This document shows, one piece after another, positions 2,443 to 64,000 of a DNA stretch of 64,000 nucleotides. The stretch spans positions 11,808,001-11,872,000 of the forward strand of contig CP086569.2 of the NCBI GenBank assembly GCA_009914755.4. Reading direction: 5' to 3'. Under the pieces are notes generated by a model. The model did not search any database and was not told the DNA's origin. It saw only the letters and a program-made list of their open reading frames with translations. The position numbers and the translations under genes were made by a program. Within the stretch, counting starts at the first letter, position 1. Each line of letters begins with the position of its first letter. The DNA is from the human T2T-CHM13v2.0 reference genome, Homo sapiens.

Positions 2443-2498
2443 ATTCGAATGGAATGGAATCGAATGGAATGGAACGAATTGGAATGTAATTGAATGGA

Positions 2499-4280: not shown

Positions 4281-4310
4281 GAAAGGAATGGCCTCGAGCG
4301 GAATTTATTT
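4281..4310. other. Conserved island with GGCC plus the CTCGAG (XhoI) site and the haplotype-diagnostic CpG variant cgagCGg versus cgagTGg.
   Basis: Copies 1-7 read aatggcctcgagcggaatttatttg. Copies 8-11 read aatggcctcgagtggaatttatttg, for example at 44091-44110. Confidence 0.75.
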
Positions 4311-5607
4311 GAATAGAATGGAATCAAATGGAATACAATACCATTGAATGGAATCGAATGGAATGGAATCGAATGGAATGGAATCAAATGGAATGGAACG
4401 GAATTCAATATAATGGAGTAGAATGGAATGCATTGGAAAGGAGCAGAGTGGAATCAAGTGGAATGGAATCGAGTGGAATGGAATCGAGTGGAATGGAATC
4501 AATGGGAACAAAATCGAATTGAATGGACTTGAATGGAATTGACTCGAAAGGAATTGACTCGAAAGGAATGGACTGGAACAAAAAGGAATCAAATGGACAG
4601 GAATGGGATGGAATGGACACGAATGGAATGGAGTCAAATGCAAACGCATCGAATGGAATGGATTGAAATGGAATGCAATGGAATGGAACAGAAAGGAAGA
4701 GAATGGAATTGAGAGTAATGGAAAGATATCGATTGGAATGAAATGGAATGGAAAGGAATTGAATGGAAAGGAATGGAGTGGAAAGAAATGGATTGGAATG
4801 GAATGGTCTCCAATGGAATGGACTGGAGTGGAATGGAATCGAATGGAATGAAAAGAATGGAACGGAATGGAACGGAAAGGAATAGAATGTTATGGAATCC
4901 GATTGGACAGAATGGAATGGAATGGACTTTCATGAAATGGAGTCGAATAGAGTGTCATCAAAAGGAATGGAATGGAATGGAGTGGACTCAAAAGGAATGG
5001 ACTCGAAAGGAATGGAGTCGAACCAAATTGAATCAAATGGATTGGAGTCGAACAGAATGGAATGGAATGAAATGTACTCGACTGGAGTAGAGAGGAATGT
5101 AAAGGAATAGAATGGAATGTAATCAAATGGATTGCAAGTGAATGGAATCAAAAATAATAGAAAGGAATGGAGTGTAAAGGGATGATATTGAATATAATGG
5201 AATGGAATGGAATTTAATGGAATGGAGACGAAGGAATGGACAGGAATGTAATGGACTCCAATGGAATGGAATGGATCAAAATGGATTTGAACAGATTGGA
5301 ATCGAACGGAATGGAATGCAACGGCATGGAATGGACTCGAATGGAGAAGAGACAAATGGAATGGAAACGAATTCAATGGAATTGAAAAGAATAGGATGGA
5401 ATGGCGTGTAATGGTAAGATACTAAATGGAATGGAATTGAATGGAATGGAATGGACCCAAATGTAATGCACTCGAAAGGAATATACTCAAATAGAATGGA
5501 ATCGAAAGGAAAGGTCTCAAATGGAATTTATTCAATACAATGGAATCGAATGGAATGCAATAGAATGGAATGGAATCGAATGTAATGGAATCAAATAGAA
5601 TGGACCA

Positions 5608-39814: not shown

Positions 39815-42800
39815 GAATGGAATGGACTGCCATAGAACGGACTGCAGTGTAATGGATTGAATTCTAATTCATTCAAATGGAATGGAATTGAATGGAATGG
39901 AATCCAATGGAATGGATAGGATTGTACTGGAATGGAATAGCATGGAATGCAACGGAGTGGAATGGAGTTGAATGAAGTGGAATGGAATCGATTGGAATGG
40001 AATCAAATGGAATGGACGGGAATGGAATGGACTGGAAGAGAACAGACTGGAATTTAATGGATTGCACTGTAATTGATTCAAATGGAATGGAATCGAATGG
40101 AATGTAATAAAATTGAAGGGATTTGAGTTCAATGCAATGGAATAGAATGGAATGCAAAGGAAAGGAAAGGTACGGAGTGAAATCGAGTGTAATGGAATCG
40201 AATGGAATGAAATGGAATGGAATGGACTCAAAAGAAATGGACGAGGGACAAAACGGAATCGAACTGATTGGAATCGAACGGAACGGAATGGAATGGAATG
40301 GTCTCCATTGGATCGGAGTAGAACGGACTGGAATGGAATGGAATGAAATGGAATGGAAAGGAATAGAATGGAATGGAATGGAATGGAATGGAATGGAAGG
40401 TAATGGAAAGATATCGAACGGATTGGAAAGGAATGGAATGCACCCTAATGGAATGGAATGGAATTCAACAGAAACGAATGGAATGGACTGGAGTGAAATG
40501 GAGTCGAATGTAATTGACTGGAGTGGAATGGACTCGAAAGGAATGGACTCGAATAGAATGGACTGGAATGGATTGTACTCGAATGGAGTGGAATGGAATA
40601 AAATGGATTCCACCAGATTGGAATGGAACAGAATGTAATGGAATGGAATGGAATGCAACGGAATAGCTCCAATGGAATGGAGTCGAATGCAATGGAACAG
40701 AAAGGAAAGGAATTGAATGGAATTGAAAGGAATAGAACAAAATGGAGTGCAAAGGAAAGATATCGAATGGAATGGATCGAAAAGAAATCGAATGGAATGG
40801 ACAGGAATGGAATGGAATAGAATGGAATAGACTGGCGTGCAATGAAAACGAATGGAATGGAAACGAATGGAATGCAATGGAAAGGAATGGAGTAGAATAA
40901 ATACTATGGAATGGAATGGAGGCGAAAGGAAAAGAATGGATTGGAATGTCACCGAATGGAAAGATATGGAATGGAAAGGAATGGATACGAATGGAATGGA
41001 ATAGAAAGGAACGGAAAGGTAAAGAATGGAATGGAATCGGATAGAATGGAATGCAATGTAATGGAGTCGAATGGAAAATAATCGTGTAGAATGATATCGA
41101 ATGGAATGGAATTGAATGGAATGGAATGGAATGGACTCGAATGGAATGTACTCAAATGGATTAGAATAGAATGGAATGGAATTAAACGTAATGAACTCGA
41201 ATGGAATGGACACAATTAGAATGGAAGAGAAAGGAATGGTATTGAATGGAATTTATTCGAATAGAGTGGAATTGAATGGAATGCAACAGTGTGGCATGGA
41301 ATCAAATGGAATGGAATCGAATGGAATGGACCCGAGTGGAATGGACTCACATAGAACAGCCTCGAATGTAATGGATGACAATGTATTAGATTCGAAAGGA
41401 CTGAAATCGAATGGAATGTAATCAAGTAGAACGGAATTGAATGCATGGAATGGCATGGAAAGTAACGCAATGGAATGGAATAGACTGGAATGGAATGGAA
41501 TCGGATGGAATGTAATGAAATGTAATGGAAGGAATGCCATGGAATGGAATGGAATGGAATGCAATGGGACGGTGTATAATGGAGTGCAATGGATTTCAGT
41601 GGAATGTAGTCAAAAGGAAAGAAATAGAATGGAATTCAATATAATGGAATGGCATCCAATGGCAAGGAATGGAGCGGACTCCAATGGAAACGACATGAAA
41701 GGAATATAATATAATGGAATGGCATTGAACGAAATGGAACGCAATGGAGTTAAAAGGTAAAATATCGAATGGAAAAGAATTGAATGGACTCGAAAGGAAT
41801 ATAATGGAATGGAATGGACTCGAATGGAATGTACTAGAGTTGAATGGAATCGAATGGAATGGAAAACAATGGAAAGGAAAGGAAAGGAATTGAAAGGAAA
41901 GGAATAGAATGGAATGGAATCGGATGGAACGGAATTGAATGGAATGGAAACTACAGGAATAGAATAGAAAGGAATCGCATTGAATGGAATGGAATGGAAT
42001 GGAATCAGATGGAACAGAAAGGAATGGAATAGAATCGAATGGAATGGCATCGAATGGATGGAATGGAATGGAATGGAATGGAATAGAAAGGAATGGAATG
42101 GACTCGAATGGAATGTACTCAAATGGAATAGAATAGAATGGAATGGAAGTAAATATAATGGACTCGAATGGAATGCATTGGAATAAATTGGAATTGAGTG
42201 TATTGGATTCGAATGGAAAGGAATGGAATGGAATGGAATGGAATGGAATGGAATGGAATGGATTCGAATGGAATGGAATCGAATGGAATGGAACGAATTG
42301 GAATGTAATTGAATGGAGTCAAAAACAGTAGAAAAAAATAAAGTTTCATCGAATGATATCGAATGGAATTGAATAGAATGTACGCGAATGGAATGGACTG
42401 GAATGGAATGGAGTGACATGTAACGGAATCGAAAGGAATGGAATCCAATGAAATGGAATTGAATGGAATAGAAATGAATAGAATGGAATGGAGATTAATG
42501 GAAAGATATTAAAATAATGGAATGGAATTGAGTGGACACGAATGGAATGGACTGGAATGGAAAGGACTCGAATGAAATGGAGCGCATTAGCATGGACTCG
42601 AATGGAATGGATTGGAGTGGAATGGTCTCGAATGGATTGGAATGGAATGGAATGGAAAGGAATAGAATGGAATGTAATCAAATGGAACGAAATGGAATGG
42701 AATGGATTCGACTGGAGCAGAATTGAATGGAGTGCAATTGAATGGAATGGAATGCAATCGAATGGAATGGACACGAATCGAATAGAATGAAATGAAATGG

Positions 42801-45379
42801 CATAGAATGGAATGGAATGGAATGGAATGGAATGGAATGGAATGGAATGGCATGGAATGGAATGACATGGCATGGCATGGCATGGAATGGAATGGAATGA
42901 AATGGATTGCAATGAGATGGGCCCAAAAGTAATAGACTCAAATAAAAAGGACTCAAATAGAATGAACTGGAAAGAAACGGTCTCGAATGTAATTTATTCG
43001 AATAGAATGATATTGAATGGAATGCAACAGTATGGAATGTTATCGAATAGAATGGAATAGAATGGAAGGGAATGGAACGGAATGGAGTGCAATTGAACGG
43101 ACTCAAATGCAATAAATTGCAATATAATTGATTCAAATGGAATGGAATCGAATAGAATGTAAACAAATGGAATGGAAGGCAATGCAATGGAAAGGATTCG
43201 AATGAAATGGAATAAATGGAATGGAATGGAATGGAAAGGACGCGAATATATTGGACTGTTAAGGAAAGGTGTCAAATCGAATTTATTCCAATAGAATGGA
43301 ATCGAATGGAATGCAATACTATTGAATCGAATCGAATGGAATGGAATTGAATGGAATGGACAGGAATTGGAATGAACTGGAAGTGAATGGACAGGAACGT
43401 AATATATTGCAATGTAATTTATTCAAATGGAATGGAATGCAATCGAATGGAATGGACTCGATTGGAATGGACTGGATTGGAATGGACTCAAATGGAATGA
43501 CAACGAATGTAATGGAATGGAATGGAAAGCAAAGGAATCTACTGGAATAGAATCGAACGGAACAGAAAGGAATGGAATGGAACGGAGTGGAATGGACTCG
43601 AATGGAATGTATTCGAATGTAATGGACCTAAAAAGGAATGGAATCCAATGGAATGGAATTGAATGGAATCAAAAGGAATAGAAAGGAATAGAGTGTAATT
43701 GAATATCGAAAGGAAGGGAATGGAATGAACTCGAATGGAATGCACTGGAATGAAATGGACTCGATGAGAACGGACTGGAGAGGAATGTACACAAAAGGAA
43801 TGGAAACGAATGGAATGGAATGAAATGGAATTGAAAGGAACGGAATCAAATGGAATGGAATGGAATGGAATGGATGGGAATAGGAGGGATTCAAATAAAA
43901 TAGAATCGATGGGAATGGTATTGAATGAAAGGGACTTGAATGGAATGCAAAGCAATGGAAGATATTGGAATCGAATGGCATCGAATGAAATGGAATGGAA
44001 CGGAATGGAACGGAACCGAATGGAATGGAATGGACTCAAATGTAATGGACACCAATGGAATCGACTGAAATATAATAGTGTCGAAAGGAATGGCCTCGAG
44101 TGGAATTTATTTGAATAGAATGGAATCAAATGGAATACAATACCATTGAATGGAATCGAATGGAATGGAATCGAATGGAATGTAATCAAATGGAATGGAA
44201 CGGAATTCAATATAAAGGAGTAGAATGGAATGCATTGGAAAGGAGCAGAGTGGAATCAAGTGGAATGGAATCGAGTGGAATGAAATCAATGGGAACAAAA
44301 TCGAATTGAATGGACTTGAATGGAATTGACTCGAAAGGAATGGACTGGAACAAAAAGGAATCAAATGGACAGGAATGGGATGGAATGGACCCGAATGGAA
44401 TGGAGTCAAATGCAAACGCATCGAATGGAATGGATTGAAATGGAATGCAATGGAATGGAACAGAAAGGAAGAGAATGGAATTGAGAGTAATGGAAAGATA
44501 TCGATTGGAATGAAATGGAATGGAAAGGAATTGAATGGAAAGGAATGGAGTGGAAAGAAATGGATTGGAATGGAATGGTCTCCAATGGAATGGACTGGAG
44601 TGGAATGGAATCGAATGGAATGAAAAGAATGGAACGGAATGGAACGGAAAGGAATAGAATGTTATGGAATCCGATTGGACAGAATGGAATGGAATGGAGT
44701 TTCATGAAATGGAGTCGAATAGAGTGGCATCAAAAGGAATGGAATGGAATGGAGTGGACTCAAAAGGAATGGACTCGAAAGGAATGGAGTCGAACCAAAC
44801 TGATTCAAATGGATTGAAGTCGAACAGAATGGAATGGAATGGAATGAACTCGACTGGAGTAGAGAGGAATGTAAAGGAATAGAATGGAATGTAATCAAAT
44901 GGATTGCAAGTGAATGGAATCAAAAATAATAGAAAGGAATGGAGTGTAAAGGGATGATATTGAATATAATGGAATGGAATGGAATTTAATGGAATGGAGA
45001 CGAAGGAATGGACAGGAATGTAATGGACTCCAATGGAATGGAATGGATCAAAATGGATTTGAACAGATTGGAATCGAACGGAATGGAATGCAATGGAATG
45101 GAATGGACTCGAATGGAGAAGAGACAAATGGAATGGAAACGAATTCAATGGAATTGAAAAGAATAGGATGGAATGGCGTGTAATGGTAAGATACTAAGTG
45201 GAATGGAATTGAATGGAATGTAATGGACCCAAATGTAATGCACTCGAAAGGAATATACTCAAATAGAATGGAATCGAAAGGAAAGGTCTCAAATGGAATT
45301 TATTCAATACAATGGAATCGAATGGAATGCAATAGAATGGAATGGAATCGAATGTAATGGAATCAAATAGAATGGACCA
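39815..45379. repeat. HOR copy 8, 5565 bp, variant D.
   Basis: The 446-aa minus ORF at 39873..41213 is a D marker, shared with 51018..52358 and 62098..63438. There is no ATAAT expansion at 41707-41716: the sequence is ataatataat followed by ggaatggcattgaacg. Confidence 0.85.
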
Positions 45380-48300
45380 GATTGGAATTGACTGCCATAG
45401 AACGGACTGCAGTGTAATGGATTGAATTCTAAATCATTCAAATGGAATGGAATTGAATGGAATGGAATCCAATGGAATGGATAGGATTGTACTGGAATGG
45501 AATAGCATGGAATGCAACGGAGTGGAATGGAGTTGAATGAAGTGGAATGGAATCGATTGGAATGGAATCAAATGGAATGGACGGGAATGGAAGGGACTGG
45601 AAGAGAACAGACTCGAATTTAATGGATTGCACTGTAATTGATTCAAATGGAATGGAATCGAATGGAATGTAATAAAATTGAAGGGATTTGAGTTCAATGC
45701 AATGGAGTAGAATGGAATGCAAAGGAAAGGAAAGGAACGGAGTGAAATCGAGTGTAATGGAATCGAATGGAATGAAATGGAATGGAATGGACTCAAAAGA
45801 AATGGACGAGGGACAAAACGGAATCGAACTGATTGGAATCGAACGGAACGGAATGGAATGGAATGGTCTCCATTGGATCGGAGTAGAACGGACTGGAATG
45901 GAATGGAATGAAATGGAATGGAAAGGAATAGAATGGAATGGAATGGAATGGAATGGAATGGAAGGTAATTGAAAGATATCGAACGGATTGGAAAGGAATG
46001 GAATGGACCCTAATGGAATGGAATGGAATTCAACAGAAACGAATGGAATGGACTGGAGTGAAATGGAGTCGAATGTAATTGACTGGAGTGGAATGGACTC
46101 GAAAGGAATGGACTCGAATAGAATGGACTGGAATGGATTGTACTCGAATGGAGTGGAAAGGAATAAAATGGATTCCACCAGATTGGAATGGAACAGAATG
46201 TAATGGAATGGAATGGAATGCAATGGAATAGCTCCAATGGAATGGAGTCGAATGCAATGGAACAGAAAGGAAAGGAATTGAATGGAATTGAAAGGAATAG
46301 AACAAAATGGAGTGCAAAGGAAAGATATCGAATGGAATGGATCGAAAAGAAATCGAATGGAATGGACAGGAATGGAATGGAATAGAATGGAATAGACTGG
46401 CGTGCAATCAAAACGAATGGAATGGAAACGAATGGAATACAATGGAAAGGAATGGAGTAGAATAAATACTATGGAATGGAATGGAGGCGAAAGGAAAAGA
46501 ATGGATTGGAATGTCGCCGAATGGAAAGCTATGGAATGGAAAGGAATGGATACGAATGGAATGGAATAGAAAGGAACGGAAAGGTAAAGAATGGAATGGA
46601 ATCGGATAGAATGGAATGCAATGTAATGGAGTCGAATGGAAAATAATCGAGTAGAATGATATCGAACGGACTGGAATTTAATAGAATGGAATGGAATGGA
46701 ATGGACTCGAATGGAATGTACTCAAATGGATTAGAATAGAATGGAGTGGAACTAAACGTAATGAACTCGAATGGAATGGACACAAATAGAATGGAAGAGA
46801 AAGGAATGGTATTGAATGGAATTTATTCGAATAGAGTGGAATTCAATGGAATGCAACAGTGTGGCATGGAATCAAATGGAATGGAATCGAATGGAATGGA
46901 CCCGAGTGGAATGGACTCACATAGAACAGCCTCGAATGTAATGGATGACAATGTATTAGATTCGAAAGGACTGAAATCAAATGGAATGTAATCAAGTAGA
47001 ACGGAATTGAATGCATGGAATGGCATAGAAAGTAACGCAATGGAATGGAATAGACTGGAATGGAATGGAATCGGATGGAATGTAATGAAATGTAATGGAA
47101 GGAATGCCATGGAATGGAATGGAATGGAATGCAATGGGACGGTGTATAATGGAGTGCAATGGATTTCAGTGGAATGTAGTCAAAAGGAAAGAAATAGAAT
47201 GGAATTCAATATAATGGAATGGCATCCAATGGCAAGGAATGGAGCGGACTCCAATGGAAACGACATGAAAGGAATATAATATAATGGAGTGGAATATAAT
47301 ATAATATAATATAATATAATATAATATAATATAATATAATGCAATGGAGTTAAAAGTTAAAATATCGAATGGAAAAGAATTGAATGGACTCGAAAGGAAT
47401 ATAATGGAATGGAATGGACTCGAATGGAATGTACTAGAGTTGAATGGAATCGAATGGAATGGAAAACAATGCAAGGGAAAGGAAAGGAATTGAAAGGAAA
47501 GGAATAGAATGGAATGGAATCGGATGGAACGGAATTGAATGGAATGGAAACTAAAGGAATAGAATAGAAAGGAATCGCATTGAATTGAATGGAATGGAAT
47601 GGAATCAGATGGAACAGAAAGGAATGGAATAGAATCGAATGGAATGGCATCGAATGGATGGAATGGAATGGAATGGAATGGAATAGAAAGGAATGGAATG
47701 GGCTCGAATGGAATGTACTCAAATGGAATAGAATAGAATGGAATGGAAGTAAATATAATGGACTCGAATGGAATGCATTGGAATAAATTGGAATTGAGTT
47801 TATTGGATTCGAATGGAAAGGAATGGAATGGAATGGAATGGAATGGAATGGATTCGAATGGAATGGAATCGAATGGAATGGAACGAATTGGAATGTAATT
47901 GAATGGAGTCAAAAACAGTAGAAAGAAAGAAAGTTTCATCGAATGATATCGAATGGAATTGAATGGAATGTACGCGAATGGAATGGAGTGACATGTAACG
48001 GAATCGAAAGGAATGGAATCCAATGAAATGGAATTGAATGGTATAGAAATGTATAGAATGGAATGGAGATTAATGGAAAGATATTAAAATAATGGAATGG
48101 AATTGAGTGGACACGAATGGAATGGACTGGAATGGAAAGGACTCGAATGAAATGGAGCGCATTAGAATGGACTCGAATGGAATGGATTGGAGTGGAATGG
48201 TCTCAAATGGATTGGAAAGGAATGGAATGGAAAGGAATAGAATGGAATGTAATCAAACGGAACGAAATTGAATGGAATGGATTCGACTGGAGCAGAATTG

Positions 48301-50959
48301 AATGGAGTGGAATTGAATGGAATGGAATGCAATCGAATGGAATGGACACGAATCGAATAGAATGAAATGAAATGGCATAGAATGGAATGGAATGGAATGG
48401 AATGGAATGGAATGGAATGGAATGGAATGGCATGGAATGGAATGACATGGCATGGCATGGCATGGAATGGAATGGAATGAAATTGATTGGAATGGGATGG
48501 GCCCAAAAGTAATAGACTCCAATAAAAAGGACTCAAATAGAATGAACTGGAAAGAAACGGTCTCGAATGTAATTTATTCGAATAGAATGATATTGAATGG
48601 AATGCAACAGTATGGAATGTTATCGAATAGAATGGAATAGAATGGAAGGGAATGGAACGGAATGGAGTGCAATTGAACGGACTCAAATGCAATAAATTGC
48701 AATATAATTGATTCAAATGGAATGGAATCGAATAGAATGTAAACAAATGGAATGGAAGGCAATGCAATGGAAAGGAATCGAATGAAATGGAATAAATGGA
48801 ATGGAATGGAATGGAAAGGACGCGAATATATTGGACTGTTAAGGAAAGGTGTCAAATCGAATTTATTCCAATAGAATGGAATCGAATGGAATGCAATACT
48901 ATTGAATCGAATCGAATGCAATGGAATTGAATGGAATGGACAGGAATTGGAATGAACTGGAAGTGAATGGACAGGAACGTAATATATTGCAATGTAATTT
49001 ATTCAAATGGAATGGAATGCAATCGAATGGAATGGACTCGATTGGAATGGACTGGAGTGGAATGGACTCAAATGGAATGGCAAGGAATGGAATGGAATGG
49101 AATGGAAAGCAAAGGAATCTACTGGAATAGAATCGAACGGAACAGAAAGGAATGGAATGGAACGGAGTGGAATGGACTCGAATGGAATGTATTCGAATGT
49201 AATGGACCTAAAAAGGAATGGAATCCAATGGAATGGAATTGAATGGAATCAAAAGGAATAGAAAGGAATAGAGTGTAATTGAATATCGAAAGGAAGGGAA
49301 TGGAATGAACTCGAATGGAATGCACTGGAATGAAATGGACTCGATCAGAACGGACTGGAGAGGAATGTACACAAAAGGAATGGAAACGAATGGAATGGAA
49401 TGAAATGGAATTGAAAGGAACGGAATCAAATGGAATGGAATGGAATGGAATGGATTGGAATAGAATGGATTCAAATAAAATAGAATCGATGGGAATGGTA
49501 TTGAATGAAAGGGACTTGAATGGAATGCAAAGCAATGGAAGATATTGGAATCGAATGGCATCGAATGAAATGGAATGGAACGGAATGGAACGGAACCGAA
49601 TGGAATGGAATGGACTCAAATGTAATGGACACCAATGGAATCGACTGAAATATAATAGTGTCGAAAGGAATGGCCTCGAGTGGAATTTATTTGAATAGAA
49701 TGGAATCAAATGGAATACAATACCATTGAATGGAATCGAATGGAATGGAATCGAATGGAATGTAATCAAATGGAATGGAACGGAATTCAATATAAAGGAG
49801 TAGAATGGAATGCATTGGAAAGGAGCAGAGTGGAATCAAGTGGAATGGAATCGAGTGGAATGGAATCAATGGGAACAAAATCGAATTGAATGGACTTGAA
49901 TGGAATTGACTCGAAAGGAATGGACTGGAACAAAAAGGAATCAAATGGACAGGAATGGGATGGAATGGACCCGAATGGAATGGAGTCAAATGCAAACGCA
50001 TCGAATGGAATGGATTGAAATGGAATGCAATGGAATGGAACAGAAAGGAAGAGAATGGAATTGAGAGTAATGGAAAGATATCGATTGGAATGAAATGGAA
50101 TGGAAAGGAATTGAATGGAAAGGAATGGAGTGGAAAGAAATGGATTGGAATGGAATGGTCTCCAATGGAATGGACTGGAGTGGAATGGAATCGAATGGAA
50201 TGAAAAGAATGGAACGGAATGGAACGGAAAGGAATAGAATGTTATGGAATCCGATTGGACAGAATGGAATGGAATGGAGTTTCATGAAATGGAGTCGAAT
50301 AGAGTGGCATCAAAAGGAATGGAATGGAATGGAGTGGACTCAAAAGGAATGGACTCGAAAGGAATGGAGTCGAACCAAACTGATTCAACTGGATTGAATT
50401 CGAACAGAATGGAATGGAATGGAATGAACTCGACTGGAGTAGAGAGGAATGTAAAGGAATAGAATGGAATGTAATCAAATGGATTGCAAGTGAATGGAAT
50501 CAAAAATAATAGAAAGGAATGGAGTGTAAAGGGATGATATTGAATATAATGGAATGGAATGGAATTTAATGGAATGGAGACGAAGGAATGGACAGGAATG
50601 TAATGGACTCCAATGGAATGGAATGGATCAAAATGGATTTGAACAGATTGGAATCGAACGGAATGGAATGCAATGGAATGGAATGGACTCGAATGGAGAA
50701 GAGACAAATGGAATGGAAACGAATTCAATGGAATTGAAAAGAATAGGATGGAATGGCGTGTAATGGTAAGATACTAAGTGGAATGGAATTGAATGGAATG
50801 TAATGGACCCAAATGTAATGCACTCGAAAGGAATATACTCAAATAGAATGGAATCGAAAGGAAAGGTCTCAAATGGAATTTATTCAATACAATGGAATCG
50901 AATGGAATGCAATAGAATGGAATGGAATCGAATGTAATGGAATCAAGTAGAATGGACCA
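45380..50959. repeat. HOR copy 9, 5580 bp, variant E.
   Basis: The 334-aa minus ORF at 45438..46442 is an E marker, shared with 56513..57517. There is an (ATAAT)9 expansion at 47296-47340. The anchor reads accagattggaattgactgcc. Confidence 0.85.
47296..47340. repeat. (ATAAT)9 microsatellite embedded in HOR copy 9.
   Basis: Nine perfect ataat units run directly after ggaatataatataatggagtggaat. The homologous site in copies 1-6 is ataataaaat and in copies 7, 8, 10 and 12 is ataatataat (2 units). The minus-strand ORF over this site reads YYIILYYIIL. Confidence 0.9.
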
Positions 50960-53900: not shown

Positions 53901-56454
53901 AATGGAATGGACACGAATCGAATAGAATGAAATGAAATGGCATAGAATGGAATGGAATGGAATGGAATGGAATGGAATGGAATGGAATGGAATGGAATGG
54001 AATGGAATGGAATGGAATGGCATGGAATGGAATGACATGGCATGGCATGGCATGGAATGGAATGGAATGAAATGGATTGGAATGAGATGGGCCCAAAAGT
54101 AATAGACTCAAATAAAAAGGACTCAAATAGAATGAACTGGAAAGAAACGGTCTCGAATGTAATTTATTCGAATAGAATGATATTGAATGGAATGCAACAG
54201 TATGGAATGTTATCGAATAGAATGGAATAGAATGGAAGGGAATGGAACGGAATGGAGTGCAATTGAACGGACTCAAATGCAATAAATTGCAATATAATTG
54301 ATTCAAATGGAATGGAATCGAATAGAATGTAAACAAATGGAATGGAAGGCAATGCAATGGAAAGGATTCGAATGAAATGGAATAAATGGAATGGAATGGA
54401 ATGGAAAGGACGCGAATATATTGGACTGTTAAGGAAAGGTGTCAAATCGAATTTATTCCAATAGAATGGAATCGAATGGAATGCAATACTATTGAATCGA
54501 ATCGAATGGAATGGAATTGAATGGAATGGACAGGAATTGGAATGAACTGGAAGTGAATGGACAGGAACGTAATATATTGCAATGTAATTTATTCAAATGG
54601 AATGGAATGCAATCGAATGGAATGGACTCGATTGGAATGGACTGGATTGGAATGGACTCAAATGGAATGACAACGAATGTAATGGAATGGAATGGAAAGC
54701 AAAGGAATCTACTGGAATAGAATCGAACGGAACAGAAAGGAATGGAATGGAACGGAGTGGAATGGACTCGAATGGAATGTATTCGAATGTAATGGACCTA
54801 AAAAGGAATGGAATCCAATGGAATGGAATTGAATGGAATCAAAAGGAATAGAAAGGAATAGAGTGTAATTGAATATCGAAAGGAAGGGAATGGAATGAAC
54901 TCGAATGGAATGCACTGGAATGAAATGGACTCGATGAGAACGGACTGGAGAGGAATGTACACAAAAGGAATGGAAACGAATGGAATGGAATGAAATGGAA
55001 TTGAAAGGAACGGAATCAAATGGAATGGAATGGAATGGAATGGATGGGAATAGGAGGGATTCAAATAAAATAGAATCGATGGGAATGGTATTGAATGAAA
55101 GGGACTTGAATGGAATGCAAAGCAATGGAAGATATTGGAATCGAATGGCATCGAATGAAATGGAATGGAACGGAATGGAACGGAACCGAATGGAATGGAA
55201 TGGACTCAAATGTAATGGACACCAATGGAATCGACTGAAATATAATAGTGTCGAAAGGAATGGCCTCGAGTGGAATTTATTTGAATAGAATGGAATCAAA
55301 TGGAATACAATACCATTGAATGGAATCGAATGGAATGGAATCGAATGGAATGTAATCAAATGGAATGGAACGGAATTCAATATAAAGGAGTAGAATGGAA
55401 TGCATTGGAAAGGAGCAGAGTGGAATCAAGTGGAATGGAATCGAGTGGAATGGAATCAATGGGAACAAAATCGAATTGAATGGACTTGAATGGAATTGAC
55501 TCGAAAGGAATGGACTGGAACAAAAAGGAATCAAATGGACAGGAATGGGATGGAATGGACCCGAATGGAATGGAGTCAAATGCAAACGCATCAAATGGAA
55601 TGGATTGAAATGGAATGCAATGGAATGGAACAGAAAGGAAGTGAATGGAATGGTCTCCAATGGAATGGACTGGAGTGGAATGGAATCGAATGGAATGAAA
55701 AGAATGGAACGGAATGGAACGGAAAGGAATAGAATGTTATGGAATCCGATTGGACAGAATGGAATGGAATGGAGTTTCATGAAATGGAGTCGAATAGAGT
55801 GGCATCAAAAGGAATGGAATGGAATGGAGTGGACTCAAAAGGAATGGACTCGAAAGGAATGGAGTCCAACAAAACTGATTCAAATGGATTGAAGTCGAAC
55901 AGAATGGAATGGAATGGAATGAACTCGACTGGAGTAGAGAGGAATGTAAAGGAATAGAATGGAATGTAATCAAATGGATTGCAAGTGAATGGAATCAAAA
56001 ATAATAGAAAGGAATGGAGTGTAAAGGGATGATATTGAATATAATGGAATGGAATGGAATTTAATGGAATGGAGACGAAGGAATGGACAGGAATGTAATG
56101 GACTCCAATGGAATGGAATGGATCAAAATGGATTTGAACAGATTGGAATCGAACGGAATGGAATGCAATGGAATGGAATGGACTCGAATGGAGAAGAGAC
56201 AAATGGAATGGAAACGAATTCAATGGAATTGAAAAGAATAGGATGGAATGGCGTGTAATGGTAAGATACTAAGTGGAATGGAATTGAATGGAATGTAATG
56301 GACCCAAATTTAATGCACTCGAAAGGAATATACTCAAATAGAATGGAATCGAAAGGAAAGGTCTCAAATGGAATTTATTCAATACAATGGAATCGAATGG
56401 AATGCAATAGAATGGAATGGAATCGAATGTAATGGAATCAAATAGAATGGACCA
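50960..56454. repeat. HOR copy 10, 5495 bp, variant D, with a 95-bp deletion and a +25-bp (GGAAT)n tract expansion.
   Basis: The 446-aa ORF at 51018..52358 is identical in structure to that of copy 8. The deletion junction lies at about 55641-55650. The pure GGAAT run at 53941-54020 is 5 pentamers longer than in copy 8. Confidence 0.85.
55636..55655. other. Junction of a 95-bp deletion private to HOR copy 10.
   Basis: Copy 10 reads cagaaaggaagtgaatggaatggtctccaatgg. Copies 8 and 9 have about 108 bp (gagaatggaattgagagtaatggaaagatatcgattgg...aaatggattggaatggaatgg) between cagaaaggaa and tctccaatgg. In the track, two ORFs fuse into the 167-aa ORF at 55277..55780. Confidence 0.8.
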
Positions 56455-59400
56455 GATTGGAATGGACTGCCATAGAACGGACTGCAGTGTAATGGATTGA
56501 ATTCTAAATCATTCAAATGGAATGGAATTGAATGGAATGGAATCCAATGGAATGGATAGGATTGTACTGGAATGGAATAGCATGGAATGCAACGGAGTGG
56601 AATGGAGTTGAATGAAGTGGAATGGAATCGATTGGAATGGAATCAAATGGAATGGACGGGAATGGAAGGGACTGGAAGAGAACAGACTCGAATTTAATGG
56701 ATTGCAATGTAATTGATTCAAATGGAATGGAATCGAATGGAATGTAATAAAATTGAAGGGATTTGAGTTCAATGCAATGGAGTAGAATGGAATGCAAAGG
56801 AAAGGAAAGGAACGGAGTGAAATCGAGTGTAATGGAATCGAATGGAATGAAATGGAATGGAATGGACTCAAAAGAAATGGACGAGGGACAAAACGGAATC
56901 GAACTGATTGGAATCGAACGGAACGGAATGGAATGGAATGGTCTCCATTGGATCGGAGTAGAACGGACTGGAATGGAATGGAATGAAATGGAATGGAAAG
57001 GAATAGAATGGAATGGAATGGAATGGAATGGAATGGAAGGTAATTGAAAGATATCGAACGGATTGGAAAGGAATGGAATGGACCCTAATGGAATGGAATG
57101 GAATTCAACAGAAACGAATGGAATGGACTGGAGTGAAATGGAGTCGAATGTAATTGACTGGAGTGGAATGGACTCGAAAGGAATGGACTCGAATAGAATG
57201 GACTGGAATGGATTGTACTCGAATGGAGTGGAAAGGAATAAAATGGATTCCACCAGATTGGAATGGAACAGAATGTAATGGAATGGAATGGAATGCAATG
57301 GAATAGCTCCAATGGAATGGAGTCGAATGCAATGGAACAGAAAGGAAAGGAATTGAATGGAATTGAAAGGAATAGAACAAAATGGAGTGCAAAGGAAAGA
57401 TATCGAATGGAATGGATCGAAAAGAAATCGAATGGAATGGACAGGAATGGAATGGAATAGAATGGAATAGACTGGCGTGCAATCAAAACGAATGGAATGG
57501 AAACGAATGGAATACAATGGAAAGGAATGGAGTAGAATAAATACTATGGAATGGAATGGAGGCGAAAGGAAAAGAATGGATTGGAATGTCGCCGAATGGA
57601 AAGCTATGGAATGGAAAGGAATGGATACGAATGGAATGGAATAGAAAGGAACGGAAAGGTAAAGAATGGAATGGAATCGGATAGAATGGAATGCAATGTA
57701 ATGGAGTCGAATGGAAAATAATCGAGTAGAATGATATCGAACGGACTGGAATTTAATAGAATGGAATGGAATGGAATGGACTCGAATGGAATGTACTCAA
57801 ATGGATTAGAATAGAATGGAGTGGAACTAAACGTAATGAACTCGAATGGAATGGACACAAATAGAATGGAAGAGAAAGGAATGGTATTGAATGGAATTTA
57901 TTCGAATAGAGTGGAATTCAATGGAATGCAACAGTGTGGCATGGAATCAAATGGAATGGAATCGAATGGAATGGACCCGAGTGGAATGGACTCACATAGA
58001 ACAGCCTCGAATGTAATGGATGACAATGTATTAGATTCGAAAGGACTGAAATCGAATGGAATGTAATCAAGTAGAACGGAATTGAATGCATGGAATGGCA
58101 TAGAAAGTAACGCAATGGAATGGAATAGACTGGAATGGAATGGAATCGGATGGAATGTAATGAAATGTAATGGAAGGAATGCCATGGAATGGAATGGAAT
58201 GGAATGCAATGGGACGGTGTATAATGGAGTGCAATGGATTTCAGTGGAATGTAGTCAAAATGAAAGAAATAGAATGGAATTCAATATAATGGAATGGCAT
58301 CCAATGGCAAGGAATGGAGCGGACTCCAATGGAAACGACATGAAAGGAATATAATATAATGGAGTGGAATATAATATAATATAATATAATATAATATAAT
58401 ATAATATAATATAATATAATGCAATGGAGTTAAAAGGTAAAATATCGAATGGAAAAGAATTGAATGGACTCGAAAGGAATATAATGGAATGGAATGGACT
58501 CGAATGGAATGTACTAGAGTTGAATGGAATCGAATGGAATGGAAAACAATGCAAGGGAAAGGAAAGGAATTGAAAGGAAAGGAATAGAATGGAATGGAAT
58601 CGGATGGAACGGAATTGAATGGAATGGAAACTAAAGGAATAGAATAGAAAGGAATCGCATTGAATTGAATGGAATGGAATGGAATCAGATGGAACAGAAA
58701 GGAATGGAATAGAATCGAATGGAATGGCATCGAATGGATGGAATGGAATGGAATGGAATGGAATAGAAAGGAATGGAATGGACTCGAATGGAATGTACTC
58801 AAATGGAATAGAATAGAATGGAATGGAAGTAAATATAATGGACTCGAATGGAATGCATTGGAATAAATTGGAATTGAGTTTATTGGATTCGAATGGAAAG
58901 GAATGGAATGGAATGGAATGGAATGGATTCGAATGGAATGGAATCGAATGGAATGGAACGAATTGGAATGTAATTGAATGGAGTCAAAAACAGTAGAAAG
59001 AAATAAAGTTTCATCGAATGATATCGAATGGAATTGAATGGAATGTACGCGAATGGAATGGAGTGACATGTAACGGAATCGAAAGGAATGGAATCCAATG
59101 AAATGGAATTGAATGGTATAGAAATGTATAGAATGGAATGGAGATTAATGGAAAGATATTAAAATAATGGAATGGAATTGAGTGGACACGAATGGAATGG
59201 ACTGGAATGGAAAGGACTCGAATGAAATGGAGCGCATTAGAATGGACTCGAATGGAATGGATTGGAGTGGAATGGTCTCAAATGGATTGGAAAGGAATGG
59301 AATGGAAAGGAATAGAATGGAATGTAATCAAACGGAACGAAATTGAATGGAATGGATTCGACTGGAGCAGAATTGAATGGAGTGGAATTGAATGGAATGG

Positions 59401-62039
59401 AATGCAATCGAATGGAATGGACACGAATCGAATAGAATGAAATGAAATGGCATAGAATGGAATGGAATGGAATGGAATGGAATGGAATGGAATGGAATGG
59501 AATGGAATGGCATGGAATGGAATGACATGGCATGGCATGGCATGGAATGGAATGGAATGAAATTGATTGGAATGGGATGGGCCCAAAAGTAATAGACTCC
59601 AATAAAAAGGACTCAAATAGAATGAACTGGAAAGAAACGGTCTCGAATGTAATTTATTCGAATAGAATGATATTGAATGGAATGCAACAGTATGGAATGT
59701 TATCGAATAGAATGGAATAGAATGGAAGGGAATGGAACGGAATGGAGTGCAATTGAACGGACTCAAATGCAATAAATTGCAATATAATTGATTCAAATGG
59801 AATGGAATCGAATAGAATGTAAACAAATGGAATGGAAGGCAATGCAATGGAAAGGAATCGAATGAAATGGAATAAATGGAATGGAATGGAATGGAAAGGA
59901 CGCGAATATATTGGACTGTTAAGGAAAGGTGTCAAATCGAATTTATTCCAATAGAATGGAATCGAATGGAATGCAATACTATTGAATCGAATCGAATGCA
60001 ATGGAATTGAATGGAATGGACAGGAATTGGAATGAACTGGAAGTGAATGGACAGGAACGTAATATATTGCAATGTAATTTATTCAAATGGAATGGAATGC
60101 AATCGAATGGAATGGACTCGATTGGAATGGACTGGAGTGGAATGGACTCAAATGGAATGGCAAGGAATGGAATGGAATGGAATGGAAAGCAAAGGAATCT
60201 ACTGGAATAGAATCGAACGGAACAGAAAGGAATGGAATGGAACGGAGTGGAATGGACTCGAATGGAATGTATTCGAATGTAATGGACCTAAAAAGGAATG
60301 GAATCCAATGGAATGGAATTGAATGGAATCAAAAGGAATAGAAAGGAATAGAGTGTAATTGAATATCGAAAGGAAGGGAATGGAATGAACTCGAATGGAA
60401 TGCACTGGAATGAAATGGACTCGATCAGAACGGACTGGAGAGGAATGTACACAAAAGGAATGGAAACGAATGGAATGGAATGAAATGGAATTGAAAGGAA
60501 CGGAATCAAATGGAATGGAATGGAATGGAATGGATTGGAATAGAATGGATTCAAATAAAATAGAATCGATGGGAATGGTATTGAATGAAAGGGACTTGAA
60601 TGGAATGCAAAGCAATGGAAGATATTGGAATCGAATGGCATCGAATGAAATGGAATGGAACGGAATGGAACGGAACCGAATGGAATGGAATGGACTCAAA
60701 TGTAATGGACACCAATGGAATCGACTGAAATATAATAGTGTCGAAAGGAATGGCCTCGAGTGGAATTTATTTGAATAGAATGGAATCAAATGGAATACAA
60801 TACCATTGAATGGAATCGAATGGAATGGAATCGAATGGAATGTAATCAAATGGAATGGAACGGAATTCAATATAAAGGAGTAGAATGGAATGCATTGGAA
60901 AGGAGCAGAGTGGAATCAAGTGGAATGGAATCGAGTGGAATGGAATCAATGGGAACAAAATCGAATTGAATGGACTTGAATGGAATTGACTCGAAAGGAA
61001 TGGACTGGAACAAAAAGGAATCAAATGGACAGGAATGGGATGGAATGGACACGAATGGAATGGAGTCAAATGCAAACGCATCGAATGGAATGGATTGAAA
61101 TGGAATGCAATGGAATGGAACAGAAAGGAAGAGAATGGAATTGAGAGTAATGGAAAGATATCGATTGGAATGAAATGGAATGGAAAGGAATTGAATGGAA
61201 AGGAATGGAGTGGAAAGAAATGGATTGGAATGGAATGGTCTCCAATGGAATGGACTGGAGTGGAATGGAATCGAATGGAATGAAAAGAATGGAACGGAAT
61301 GGAACGGAAAGGAATAGAATGTTATGGAATCAGATTGGACAGAATGGAATGGAATGGAGTTTCATGAAATGGAGTCGAATAGAGTGGCATCAAAAGGAAT
61401 GGAATGGAATGGAGTGGACTCAAAAGGAATGGACTCGAAAGGAATGGAGTCGAACCAAACTGATTCAACTGGATTGAATTCGAACAGAATGGAATGGAAT
61501 GGAATGAACTCGACTGGAGTAGAGAGGAATGTAAAGGAATAGAATGGAATGTAATCAAATGGATTGCAAGTGAATGGAATCAAAAATAATAGAAAGGAAT
61601 GGAGTGTAAAGGGATGATATTGAATATAATGGAATGGAATGGAATTTAATGGAATGCAGACGAAGGAATGGACAGGAATGTAATGGACTCCAATGGAATG
61701 GAATGGATCAAAATGGATTTGAACAGATTGGAATCGAACGGAATGGAATGCAATGGAATGGAATGGACTCGAATGGAGAAGAGACAAATGGAATGGAAAC
61801 GAATTCAATGGAATTGAAAAGAATAGGATGGAATGGCGTGTAATGGTAAGATACTAAATGGAATGGAATTGAATGGAATGTAATGGACCCAAATGTAATG
61901 CACTCGAAAGGAATATACTCAAATAGAATGGAATCGAAAGGAAAGGTCTCAAATGGAATTTATTCAATACAATGGAATCGAATGGAATGCAATAGAATGG
62001 AATGGAATCGAATGTAATGGAATCAAATAGAATGGACCA
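56455..62039. repeat. HOR copy 11, 5585 bp, variant E.
   Basis: The 334-aa ORF at 56513..57517 is identical in structure to that of copy 9. There is an (ATAAT)10 tract at 58371-58420. Confidence 0.85.
58371..58420. repeat. (ATAAT)10 microsatellite embedded in HOR copy 11.
   Basis: Ten perfect ataat units sit at the same HOR position as 47296-47340. This tract is one unit longer than the one in copy 9. Confidence 0.9.
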
Positions 62040-64000
62040 GATTGGAATGGACTGCCATAGAACGGACTGCAGTGTAATGGATTGAATTCTAAATCATTCA
62101 AATGGAATGGAATTGAATGGAATGGAATCCAATGGAATGGATAGGATTGTACTGGAATGGAATAGCATGGAATGCAACGGAGTGGAATGGAGTTGAATGA
62201 AGTGGAATGGAATCGATTGGAATGGAATCAAATGGAATGGACGGGAATGGAATGGACTGGAAGAGAACAGACTCGAATTTAATGGATTGCACTGTAATTG
62301 ATTCAAATGGAAAGGAATCGAATGGAATGTAATAAAATTGAAGGGATTTGAGTTCAATGCAATGGAGTAGAATGGAATGCAAAGGAAAGGAAAGGTACGG
62401 AGTGAAATCGAGTTTAATGGAATCGAATGGAATGAAATGGAATGGAATGGACTCAAAAGAAATGGAAGAGGGACAAAACGGAATCGAACTGATTGGAATC
62501 GAACGGAACGGAATGGAATGGAATGGTCTCCATTGGATCGGAGTAGAACGGACTGGAATGGAATGGAATGAAATGGAATGGAAAGGAATAGAATGGAATG
62601 GAATGGAATGGAATGGAATGGAAGGTAATGGAAAGATATCGAACGGATTGGAAAGGAATGGAATGGACCCTAATGGAATGGAATGGAATTCAACAGAAAC
62701 GAATGGAATAGACTGGAGTGAAATGGAGTCGAATGTAATTGACTGTAGTGTAATGGACTCGAAAGGAATGGACTCGAATAGAATGGACTGGAATGGATTG
62801 TACTCGAATGGAGTGGAAAGGAATAAAATGGATTCCACCAGATTGGATTGGAACAGAATGTAATGGAATGGAATGGAATGCAATGGAATAGCTCCAATAG
62901 AATGGAGTCGAATGCAATGGAACAGAAAGGAAAGGGATTGAATGGAATTGAAAGGAATAGAACAAAATGGAGTGCAAAGGAAAGATATCGAATGGAATGG
63001 ATCGAAAAGAAATCGAATGGAATGGACAGGAATGGAATGGAATTGAATGGAATAGACTGGCGTGCAATGAAAACGAATGGAATGGAAACGAATGGAATGC
63101 AATGGAAAGGAATGGAGTAGAATAAATACTATGGAATGGAATGGAGGCGAAAGGAAAAGAATGGATTGGAATGTCACCGAATGGAAAGATATGGAATGGA
63201 AAGGAATGGATACGAATGGAATGGAATAGAAAGGAACGGAAAGGTAAAGAATGGAATGGAATCGGATAGAATGGAATGCAATGTAATGGAGTCGAATGGA
63301 AAATAATCGTGTAGAATGATATCGAATGGAATGGAATTGAATGGAATGGAATGGAATGGACTCGAATGGAATGTACTCAAATGGATTAGAATAGAATGGA
63401 ATGGAACTAAACGTAATGAACTCGAATGGAATGGACACAAATAGAATGGAAGAGAAAGGAATGGTATTGAATGGAATTTATTCGAATAGAGTGGAATTGA
63501 ATGGAATGCAACAGTGTGGCATGGAATCAAATGGAATGGAATCGAATGGAATGGACCCGAGTGGAATGGACTCACATAGAACAGCCTCGAATGTAATGGA
63601 TGACAATGTATTAGATTCGAAAGGACTGAAATCGAATGGAATGTAATCAAGTAGAACGGAATTGAATGCATGGAATGGCATAGAAAGTAACGCAATGGAA
63701 TGGAATAGACTGGAATGGAATGGAATCGGATGGAATGTAATGAAATGTAATGGAAGGAATGCCATGGAATGGAATGGAATGGAATGCAATGGGACGGTGT
63801 ATAATGGAGTGCAATGGATTTCAGTGGAATGTAGTCAAAAGGAAAGAAATAGAATGGAATTCAATATAATGGAATGGCATCCAATGGCAAGGAATGGAGC
63901 GGACTCCAATGGAAACGACATGAAAGGAATATAATATAATGGAATGGCATTGAACGAAATGGAACGCAATGGAGTTAAAAGGTAAAATATCGAATGGAAA
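62040..64000. repeat. HOR copy 12, partial (1961 bp in this window), D-like.
   Basis: The 446-aa ORF at 62098..63438 is the D marker. The copy is truncated by the window end. Confidence 0.8.

What the first reader, a model, noticed from the sequence alone, without database searches (positions are those of the whole stretch)
39815..64000. Second-order periodicity in domain 2: alternating D and E HOR variants (about 11.1 kb)
Copies 8, 10 and 12 carry the 446-aa minus ORF and lack the ATAAT expansion. Copies 9 and 11 carry the 334-aa ORF, the expanded (ATAAT)n tract and the accagattgg anchor variant. Like-variant spacings are 11145, 11075 and 11080 bp. Copy 12 is mosaic: it has the E-type anchor and a D-type body. 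This is the same dimeric amplification mode as in domain 1, but built from a different pair of variants.
Basis: seen in the sequence. Interest (0 to 1): 0.6.

Follow-up and report, generated by a model that had tools for sequence, protein, structure and literature searches.

The report
Duplicated two-unit block in satellite DNA
The window is a human satellite 3 type (GGAAT)n array, probably the Y-chromosome subfamily HSat3A3, built of about 5.6 kb units, and the reported 11.1 kb alternation is a real but ordinary local tandem duplication of two neighbouring unit variants.

Summary
The alternation is real. The units start at 39825 (D), 45390 (E), 50970 (D) and 56465 (E). D-D and E-E differ by 0.27% and 0.22%, and D-E by 1.26%. 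All 57 two-against-two substitution columns group 8 with 10 and 9 with 11. Bootstrap support is 100% for both pairs. The stated spacings, ORFs, (ATAAT)n tracts and anchor SNP are all present.

Copy 12 is not a plain D copy. Its first ~1 kb has 17 mismatches to copy 10, 11 of them private. Only the last ~1 kb is D-like, on two shared derived sites. The cluster {8,10,12} gets 31% bootstrap.

The ORFs are HSIPF-type translations of (CATTC)n, not genes. The unit has no internal monomers, so it is a nested tandem repeat rather than a strict HOR.

The commonest HSat3A3-specific 24-mer occurs once in each of the 11 full units. The unit's conserved 31-base start sequence (the anchor) occurs in human skin metagenome contigs. 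Those contigs carry the ancestral allele at nearly all D/E sites, so D and E are local derived variants.

The most likely mechanism is unequal exchange, between sister chromatids if the array is on the Y, offset by two units. This is known satellite behaviour and of low interest.

The parts
39825..45389 (+). Unit copy 8, variant D (5565 bp)
   Evidence: Anchor positions. 0.27% substitution divergence from copy 10 against 1.26% from copy 9. Nearest neighbour is copy 10 in almost every 500-column bin.
45390..50969 (+). Unit copy 9, variant E (5580 bp)
   Evidence: 0.22% from copy 11. Polarised by domain 1, 34 of the 57 fixed D/E differences are derived in E.
50970..56464 (+). Unit copy 10, variant D (5495 bp). 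Relative to copy 8 it lacks 95 bp (copy 8 44472-44566) and 5 bp, and has 30 bp extra at 53945-53974.
56465..62049 (+). Unit copy 11, variant E (5585 bp)
   Evidence: 12 substitutions and three 5-bp indels against copy 9. NJ bootstrap for {9,11} is 100%.
62050..63044 (+). Copy 12, 5' ~1 kb. A third lineage, neither D nor E.
   Evidence: 17 mismatches to copy 10 in alignment columns 0-999, with 11 private substitutions between 62313 and 63044. It lacks the D-derived alleles at columns 224, 621, 774 and 839. It shares the E alleles at columns 43 and 317 but lacks the E-derived alleles at columns 203, 346 and 585.
63045..64000 (+). Copy 12, remaining ~0.95 kb. D-like, cut off by the window end.
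   Evidence: 1 mismatch to copy 10 and no private substitutions. It shares two D-derived alleles (63499 G, 63965 C) but lacks one (63441). {8,10,12} has 90% bootstrap in this segment only.
47296..47340 (+). (ATAAT)9 expansion, E marker
   Evidence: Absent from all other variants and from all 20 external contigs.
58371..58420 (+). (ATAAT)10 expansion, E marker (one unit longer than in copy 9)
45376..45385 (+). ACCAGATTGG anchor variant (a single A-to-T SNP) just before copy 9. The same variant lies at 56451-56460 before copy 11 and at 62036-62045 before copy 12.
   Evidence: 0 of 20 external contigs carry it; 18 have ACCAGAATGG and 2 have ACCAGTATGG.
39873..41213 (-). 446-aa ORF, also at 51018-52358 and 62098-63438. 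A compositional artefact, not a gene.
   Evidence: Its translation is an HSIPF-type repeat. All 25 ORFs of at least 250 aa are on the minus strand. Stop-codon frequency is 1.45% on the minus strand and 4.2% on the plus strand. No homologues at E <= 1e-20.
45438..46442 (-). 334-aa ORF, also at 56513-57517. The same artefact.
   Evidence: Its stop is at the same unit offset (48) as that of the 446-aa ORF. The frame stays open upstream, and the shorter length reflects where the first ATG, GTG or TTG falls, plus a 5-bp insertion at 46679-46683.
34272..39824 (+). Unit copy 7, the left flank of the D-E-D-E block. A different variant.
   Evidence: 1.43-1.72% from copies 8-11. The lag-2 comparison of 7 with 9 is dissimilar along the whole unit.
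44928..44951 (+). Reverse complement of the commonest HSat3A3-specific 24-mer (CTTTACACTCCATTCCTTTCTATT). It occurs once in each of the 11 full units, at 5156, 10773, 16375, 21982, 27589, 33810, 39363, 44928, 50508, 56003 and 61588.
   Evidence: The 24-mer is from Table 1 of Altemose et al. 2014, PMC4022460.
11..22443 (+). Domain 1 counterpart: A-B block (11-11234) repeated as A-B (11235-22443), followed by a further B copy (22444-28050)
   Evidence: 17 abab columns. The blocks are 99.884% identical. Copies 4 and 5 differ by 2 substitutions.

Best explanation
The window is a pentamer-derived (GGAAT)n satellite of the human satellite 3 type. It is very probably the Y-linked subfamily HSat3A3, in the pericentromeric HSat3/DYZ17 region of Yq11.1. 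It is organised as a ~5.6 kb nested tandem repeat.

In this stretch two neighbouring units had already diverged into variants D and E. D carries 22 private derived substitutions. E carries 34, plus the (ATAAT)n expansion.

The contiguous D-E pair (~11.1 kb) was then copied in tandem by an exchange offset by two units. The likely processes are unequal sister-chromatid exchange or replication-template slippage; if the array is on the male-specific Y, there is no homologue to recombine with. The result is D-E-D-E.

Afterwards the two blocks accumulated 27 substitutions and seven indels, all multiples of 5 bp (pentamer slippage). The next unit, copy 12, is a hybrid. Its 5' ~1 kb comes from a lineage not otherwise in the window and its continuation is D-like. 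This points to a further exchange or a conversion tract.

Shown: the alternation, the block identity, the polarity of the variants, and the hybrid structure of copy 12. Inferred: the exchange mechanism, the sister-chromatid route, and the chromosomal location.
For: Satellite nature: TRF reports a 5/10/15-bp array over 62-63973, with strong constant strand skew. The 5.6 kb unit is uniformly pentamer-like, with no intermediate period, no inserted non-satellite (for example transposon-like) stretch and no Rfam hit.

Alternation: 57 abab columns against none of the other two patterns. Divergence matrix. Bootstrap 100% for {8,10} and {9,11}. Copies 8 and 10, and 9 and 11, are nearest neighbours bin by bin. 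Block identity is 99.755%. The longest identical runs are 1372 and 1591 bp at lag 2, against about 500-550 bp at lag 1.

Slippage: every D/E and D/D indel is a multiple of 5 bp.

Local origin of D and E: external contigs of the same family carry the ancestral allele at nearly all 57 diagnostic sites. None has the E anchor or an (ATAAT) run of 3 or more.

Identity: the HSat3A3-specific 24-mer occurs once per unit, while the commonest 24-mers of the other 13 HSat2/3 subfamilies have no exact match. Altemose et al. 2014 localise HSat3A3 to chrY (Table 1) and to hg19 Y:13.54-13.75 Mb (Table S8). The exact 31-mer anchor is found in 20 metagenome contigs, including ones labelled human skin metagenome.

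Literature: kb-scale nested tandem repeats in HSat2/3 vary in periodicity along an array and expand hyper-locally. Y heterochromatin evolves by iterative tandem duplication and unequal exchange, with sister-chromatid exchanges observed.
Against: Only two full periods are visible, so one event cannot be distinguished from the edge of a longer array. The D-like 3' part of copy 12 hints at a third period that a single duplication does not predict.

The last ~1.3 kb of the unit is almost identical in copies 7-11. Some homogenisation other than whole-block duplication, such as gene conversion, therefore also acts here.

The subfamily assignment rests on one published 24-mer. The best external identity is 98.6% over 1.3 kb and most contigs are at 95-96%. 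No human genome could be searched, so the chromosomal position is not directly verified. The exchange mechanism cannot be observed from sequence.
Confidence: 0.8

Rival explanations
1. The window catches the edge of a long array whose true repeat unit is the 11.1 kb D-E dimer. This would be an established second-order nested tandem repeat that continues beyond position 64000, not a two-copy local duplication.
For: After E2 the sequence returns to a D-like state at 63045-64000, with 1 mismatch to copy 10. Domain 1 also shows a two-unit register. Altemose et al. report that periodicity can shift along HSat3 arrays.
Against: Copy 7 on the left is a different variant, and the first ~1 kb of copy 12 breaks the pattern. 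None of the 20 external contigs of this family carries the E anchor, an (ATAAT) expansion or more than 3 E-derived alleles, which argues that E has a low copy number. In domain 1 the pattern stops after two periods, since copy 5 repeats copy 4.
Confidence: 0.15
2. There was no copy-number change. Long-tract gene conversion between non-adjacent units made copy 10 resemble copy 8 and copy 11 resemble copy 9.
For: Patchy homogenisation does exist in the window. The unit tail is nearly identical in copies 7-11, there are 3 abba sites in the tail of copies 1-4, and copy 12 has a ~1 kb foreign patch.
Against: This would need two independent conversions, each covering a whole 5.5 kb unit and ending at unit boundaries, with the same age (0.27% against 0.22%). 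The similarity is contiguous over 11 kb and includes the shared indels. A single block duplication is far more economical.
Confidence: 0.03
3. Assembly artefact: a D-E pair was erroneously duplicated, or reads were misjoined, in a highly repetitive region.
For: Satellite arrays are prone to such errors, and no read-level data could be examined.
Against: The two blocks are not identical. They differ by 27 substitutions and 7 indels, including a 95-bp deletion and (ATAAT)9 against (ATAAT)10. An artefactual duplicate would be expected to be near-identical.
Confidence: 0.03
4. The D and E variants encode two isoforms (446 and 334 aa) of a pentapeptide-repeat protein on the minus strand.
For: The 446-aa ORF scores 43 bits against Pfam Pentapeptide_4, above the 38-bit cut-off.
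Against: The translation is HSIPF-like, which is what (CATTC)3 gives in any frame. No single stretch passes on its own. No homologue was found at E <= 1e-20 and there is no exact record. Long ORFs occur all along the minus strand because stops are rare there, at 1.45%. The 446-aa ORF persists in copy 12 even though copy 12 differs from copy 10 at 18 positions across the first 1.4 kb that the ORF occupies.
Confidence: 0.005

Closest known systems
HSat3 nested tandem repeats (NTRs), subfamily HSat3A3 of the human Y pericentromere (HSat3/DYZ17 region). Sources: Altemose et al. 2014 (PMC4022460), Altemose et al. 2021 (10.1101/2021.07.12.452052), Hallast et al. 2023 (10.1101/2022.12.01.518658).
   Same: It derives from the (CATTC)n pentamer and has a kb-scale unit without discrete monomers. 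The HSat3A3-specific 24-mer occurs once per unit. The family is present in human-derived samples. Periodicity shifts locally, as the authors describe for HSat3 arrays.
   Different: I found no published unit length for HSat3A3 or DYZ17 to compare with 5.6 kb. The chromosomal position was not verified directly. Only one subfamily marker could be tested.
DYZ1 (HSat3A6), the ~3.6 kb nested tandem repeat of Yq12, and the iterative tandem duplications of DYZ1/DYZ2 blocks (Rhie et al., 10.1101/2022.12.01.518724)
   Same: A Y-linked, pentamer-derived kb-scale unit. Its evolution is attributed to unequal exchange, with sister-chromatid exchanges observed.
   Different: The unit length differs (5.6 against 3.6 kb). 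The HSat3A6 marker 24-mer is absent here. The duplications here are 11 kb, not up to megabases.
Alpha-satellite higher-order repeats with HOR variants and HOR haplotypes (layered, local expansions)
   Same: Near-identical long units, locally amplified variant blocks, and domains of different variants side by side.
   Different: Alpha-satellite HORs consist of an integer number of ~171-bp monomers. This unit has no intermediate monomer level, so it is not a HOR in the strict sense.
Unequal-crossover model of tandem-array evolution (Smith 1976; cited from my own knowledge, not read here)
   Same: Out-of-register exchange between repeats duplicates blocks of one or more units and produces higher periodicities. 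Both one-unit (copies 4 to 5) and two-unit steps are seen here.
   Different: Nothing. This is an instance of the model.

Membership tests
Human satellite 3 (HSat3) | Array derived from the pentamer (CATTC)n / (GGAAT)n with one strand orientation | tested here: met
   TRF period 5/10/15 over 62-63973. The five rotations of GGAAT are the top 5-mers. GC skew is a constant +0.54 to +0.65.
Human satellite 3 (HSat3) | Not HSat2: lacks the markers specific to the HSat2 subfamilies | tested here: met
   0 of 15 sampled HSat2A1 24-mers are present. The commonest 24-mers of HSat2A1, 2A2 and 2B have no match within 2 mismatches.
Human satellite 3 (HSat3) | Classical satellite III 10-mer CAACCCGA(A/G)T interspersed among the pentamers (recalled from the older literature, not checked in a paper here) | tested here: not met
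   0 occurrences of A[CT]TCGGGTTG, or even of GGGTTG or CAACCC. In Table 1 of Altemose 2014 only the HSat3B1 marker contains CGGGTTG. This motif therefore does not seem to be required of the A subfamilies. That last step is an inference.
HSat3 subfamily A3 (Y-specific) | Presence of HSat3A3-specific 24-mers (on >1% of reads of the subfamily and <=0.1% of reads of any other) | tested here: met
   CTTTACACTCCATTCCTTTCTATT is found exactly 11 times, once per full unit. It is also in 17 of the 20 related external contigs. The markers of the 13 other subfamilies have 0 exact matches in the window. Only one of the 6,554 published markers was available.
HSat3 subfamily A3 (Y-specific) | Location on the human Y chromosome (pericentromeric Yq11.1) | not testable with these tools
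   No human genome collection was available. The location is inferred from Altemose 2014 Table 1 (chrY) and Table S8 (hg19 Y:13543063-13748578).
HSat3 subfamily A3 (Y-specific) | Human origin | tested here: met
   The exact 31-mer anchor occurs in 20 metagenome contigs, two of them titled human skin metagenome. Identity to the window units reaches 98.6%. This is indirect: it shows that the family exists in human-derived DNA, not that this window is human.
Higher-order repeat (HOR) in the strict sense | The unit is composed of an integer number of discrete, similar-length monomers | tested here: not met
   There is no intermediate periodicity between 5/10/15 bp and 5.6 kb within the unit. It fits the definition of a nested tandem repeat.
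Established second-order (dimeric) repeat array | The two-unit period persists over many consecutive periods | tested here: inconclusive
   Two full periods are seen (copies 8-11), bounded on the left by a different variant (copy 7). They are followed by a hybrid unit cut off by the window end.
Pentapeptide-repeat proteins (Pfam PF13599) | A real coding gene with homologues and repeats that are individually significant | tested here: not met
   The score is 43 bits against a 38-bit cut-off, but no stretch passes on its own. The translation is an HSIPF type of (CATTC)n. No homologues were found.

The most novel reading that the evidence does not exclude
Two independent variant pairs in one 64 kb window (A-B in domain 1, D-E in domain 2) were both amplified in a two-unit step of about 11.1-11.2 kb. 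This array might therefore have a preferred exchange register of about 11 kb, set for example by chromatin or replication structure. That would make an 11 kb superunit an emergent, recurrent feature of the Y-linked HSat3A3 array rather than a coincidence of random unequal exchange.
Probability: 0.1. Interest if true: 0.3.

Novelty: already known. Interest (0 to 1): 0.1.

Why it matters
It matters little beyond bookkeeping. The finding documents, at base resolution, how one stretch of a human satellite 3 array grew by copying a two-unit block. Unit-variant maps of this kind can serve as markers for following satellite array evolution along the Y-chromosome phylogeny.

It is also a caution for annotation. 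The long minus-strand ORFs, and even a Pfam pentapeptide-repeat hit, are artefacts of translating a 5-bp repeat. This Y-satellite family also turns up as host contamination in skin metagenome assemblies.

Tried and rejected
- The repeat finder on 39815-64000 was swamped by the pentamer background: more than 1000 'copies' at 60-70% identity. It gave nothing on the 11 kb level, so I used anchor k-mers, MAFFT and site patterns instead.
- The protein routes led nowhere. There is no exact record of the 446-aa ORF and no homologue at E <= 1e-20.
- The bacterial and archaeal genome collection has no match to the anchor.
- Rfam at the gathering threshold gives no hit over one D-E block.
- I could not find a published unit length for this subfamily. 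Searches for '5.6 kb', NTRprism, DYZ17 and HSat3A3 gave the concepts but no 5.6 kb figure.
- The stored copy of Altemose 2014 Dataset S2 is cut off within the HSat2A1 24-mers. Only the single Table 1 marker per subfamily could be tested.
- I checked whether derived substitutions are templated by the pentamer 5 bp away, which would indicate micro-slippage. They are not: 49 derived alleles against 131 ancestral alleles match the base at -5 or +5.
- I considered and rejected the coding reading of the ORFs, and HSat2 membership.
Full report
WHAT THE WINDOW IS. The whole 64 kb is one tandem array derived from the pentamer GGAAT on the plus strand. TRF reports periods of 5, 10 and 15 over 62-63973. 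GC content is 0.36-0.39, with a constant GC skew of about +0.58. A 24-mer distance histogram shows a dominant period of about 5.6 kb and its multiples. A conserved start sequence (the anchor, GACTGCCATAGAACGG...) delimits 11 full units and one truncated unit. They start at 11, 5618, 11235, 16837, 22444, 28051, 34272, 39825, 45390, 50970, 56465 and 62050. Within a unit the sequence is uniformly pentamer-like. There is no intermediate period, no inserted non-satellite stretch and no Rfam hit. It is therefore a nested tandem repeat in the sense of Altemose et al., not a HOR made of discrete monomers.

CHECK OF THE OBSERVATION.
- The spacings 11145, 11075 and 11080 are correct.
- The 446-aa minus-strand ORFs are in copies 8, 10 and 12, and the 334-aa ORFs in copies 9 and 11.
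- (ATAAT)9 at 47296-47340 and (ATAAT)10 at 58371-58420 occur only in copies 9 and 11.
- The ACCAGATTGG variant, a single SNP, lies in front of copies 9, 11 and 12.

I aligned the 12 units with MAFFT (6342 columns). Substitution divergence is 0.27% for 8-10, 0.22% for 9-11 and 1.26-1.30% for D against E. Among copies 8-11, 57 substitution columns show the pattern 8=10 / 9=11, and none shows either alternative two-against-two pattern. This cannot be chance. The two 11.1 kb blocks, 39825-50969 and 50970-62049, differ by 27 substitutions in 11040 aligned bases (99.755% identity) and by seven indels. All indels are multiples of 5 bp.

THE PROPOSED TREE TEST. A neighbour-joining tree with 500 bootstraps gives {9,11} 100%, {8,10} 100%, {1,3} 99.6% and {2,4,5} 95.6%, but {8,10,12} only 31%.

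Copy 12, of which 1951 bp are visible, is a hybrid. In alignment columns 0-999 it has 17 mismatches to copy 10. Eleven of these are private, at 62313-63044. In that stretch it lacks all four D-derived alleles. It shares the E alleles at columns 43 and 317 but lacks the E-derived alleles at columns 203, 346 and 585.

In columns 1000-1995 copy 12 has one mismatch to copy 10 and no private substitution. It shares two D-derived alleles (63499 G, 63965 C) and lacks one (63441). The change from 11 private substitutions in about 740 bp to none in about 1000 bp shows a real breakpoint near 63045.

So 'mosaic' is right, but the 'D-type body' applies only to the last ~1 kb and rests on two sites. The 446-aa ORF lies mostly in the non-D part, which shows that the ORF is a poor marker.

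THE ORFS. All 25 ORFs of at least 250 aa lie on the minus strand. The stop-codon frequency there is 1.45% per codon, against 4.2% on the plus strand. The translations are HSIPF-type repeats, which is what (CATTC)3 gives. The 446-aa and 334-aa ORFs end at the same unit offset. They differ because of a 5-bp insertion at 46679-46683 and because of which start codons are available.

The 446-aa ORF passes the Pfam Pentapeptide_4 cut-off (43 against 38 bits) but no single stretch is significant. That is a periodicity artefact. There is no exact record of the protein and no homologue at E <= 1e-20.

WHERE IT COMES FROM. The 31-mer anchor has no match in the bacterial and archaeal genome collection. 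It is found in 20 metagenome contigs, two of them titled human skin metagenome. These contigs are 75-98.6% identical to the window units.

Table 1 of Altemose et al. 2014 lists the commonest subfamily-specific 24-mer for each of 14 HSat2/3 subfamilies. Only the HSat3A3 marker is present in the window. It occurs exactly 11 times, once per full unit, and in 17 of the 20 external contigs. That paper localises HSat3A3 to chrY, and to hg19 Y:13.54-13.75 Mb in clone RP11-295P22. Altemose et al. 2021 state that 3A3 is almost entirely on chrY.

Hallast et al. describe an HSat3 array (372-488 kb) and a DYZ17 array (0.86-1.74 Mb) next to the Y centromere. The window is therefore very probably human Y pericentromeric HSat3A3. 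This rests on one marker and on indirect evidence, and it was not verified by alignment to a human genome.

POLARITY AND AGE ORDER. With domain 1 as outgroup, 34 of the 57 fixed D/E differences are derived in E and 22 in D. The external contigs confirm this polarity. They carry the inferred ancestral allele at almost all 57 sites. None has the E anchor (18 have ACCAGAATGG and 2 have ACCAGTATGG) and none has an (ATAAT) run of 3 or more. D and E are thus local derived variants. They diverged first, to about 1.3%, and were then copied together, with about 0.25% divergence since. Domain 1 shows the same mode, but younger. Copies 1-4 give 17 abab, 3 abba and 0 aabb columns, and the blocks are 99.884% identical. 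This was followed by a one-unit duplication, since copies 4 and 5 differ by 2 substitutions.

MECHANISM. The best explanation is tandem duplication of a contiguous two-unit block, by unequal exchange offset by two units or by replication slippage. If the array is on the male-specific Y, the partner must be the sister chromatid. Rhie et al. reach the same conclusion for Y heterochromatin and observe sister-chromatid exchanges there. Copy 12 implies a further exchange or conversion with a variant not present in the window. The mechanism itself is inferred, not shown.

RIVALS.
- An established long 11.1 kb array continuing past the window end is possible. The D-like fragment at 63045-64000 favours it. 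The break in copy 12, the different copy 7 and the rarity of E markers in other samples argue against it.
- Whole-unit gene conversion is uneconomical.
- Misassembly is unlikely, because the blocks differ at 34 places.
- A coding function is rejected.

VERDICT. The interpretation as dimeric amplification is supported, except for copy 12 and for the weight given to the ORFs. The phenomenon is standard satellite behaviour in an array family that is already annotated. Its novelty class is 'already known' and its interest is low.

Noticed in passing
window 39873-41213 (-), also 51018-52358 and 62098-63438: The 446-aa ORF scores above the Pfam gathering cut-off for Pentapeptide_4 (43 against 38 bits), although it is only the HSIPF-type translation of (CATTC)n. 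This is a trap for automatic annotation of pentamer satellites.
   Followed up: yes
window 30377-31674 (copy 6): Copy 6 is 6221 bp long because 31036-31674 (639 bp) is a tandem duplicate of 30377-31013 at 95.8% identity. Copy 6 matches copies 2, 4 and 5 up to about alignment column 2400 and then diverges. This looks like the out-of-register junction between domain 1 and domain 2.
   Followed up: partly
whole window, 183 polarisable substitution columns: Substitutions between units are rich in transversions. There are 78 transitions against 105 transversions overall, and 18 against 38 among the fixed D/E differences. Only 4 of the 57 lie at ancestral CpG sites. This is unusual compared with the transition excess that I recall for ordinary human point mutation. 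Derived alleles are not templated by the neighbouring pentamer.
   Followed up: partly
alignment columns ~5000-6342, e.g. window 44400-45389, 49950-50969, 55500-56464, 61050-62049: The last ~1.3 kb of the unit is almost identical in copies 7-11, at 1-3 differences per 500 bp whatever the variant. The D/E differences concentrate in columns 1000-3000. This suggests a separately homogenised or more recently exchanged segment.
   Followed up: no
window ~16000-16836 (tail of copy 3) against the tails of copies 1, 2 and 4: In alignment columns 5000-5999 copy 3 is identical to copy 2 but differs from copy 1, giving 3 abba columns. The A-B-A-B blocks of domain 1 are therefore themselves slightly mosaic, or the duplication boundary is not at the unit boundary.
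   Followed up: no
L003, L007, L010, L013, L016 (about 83% identity) and L008 (about 75%): Several metagenome contigs share the exact 31-mer anchor but are only 75-84% identical to the window unit over about 5 kb. L008 carries the HSat3B5 marker instead of the 3A3 marker. More distant relatives of this unit therefore exist elsewhere in human satellite 3.
   Followed up: no
L001-L020: Contigs of this probably Y-linked satellite family, 1.5-9 kb long, sit in public skin and other metagenome assemblies as unremoved host DNA. L011 is 5628 bp, about one unit long. Rhie et al. warn about contamination of databases by Y HSat sequences.
   Followed up: partly
window 55641-55642 (copy 10), against copy 8 44472-44566: Copy 10 lacks 95 bp (19 pentamers) that are present in copies 8, 9 and 11, and has 30 bp extra at 53945-53974. 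All length changes since the duplication are multiples of 5 bp.
   Followed up: yes
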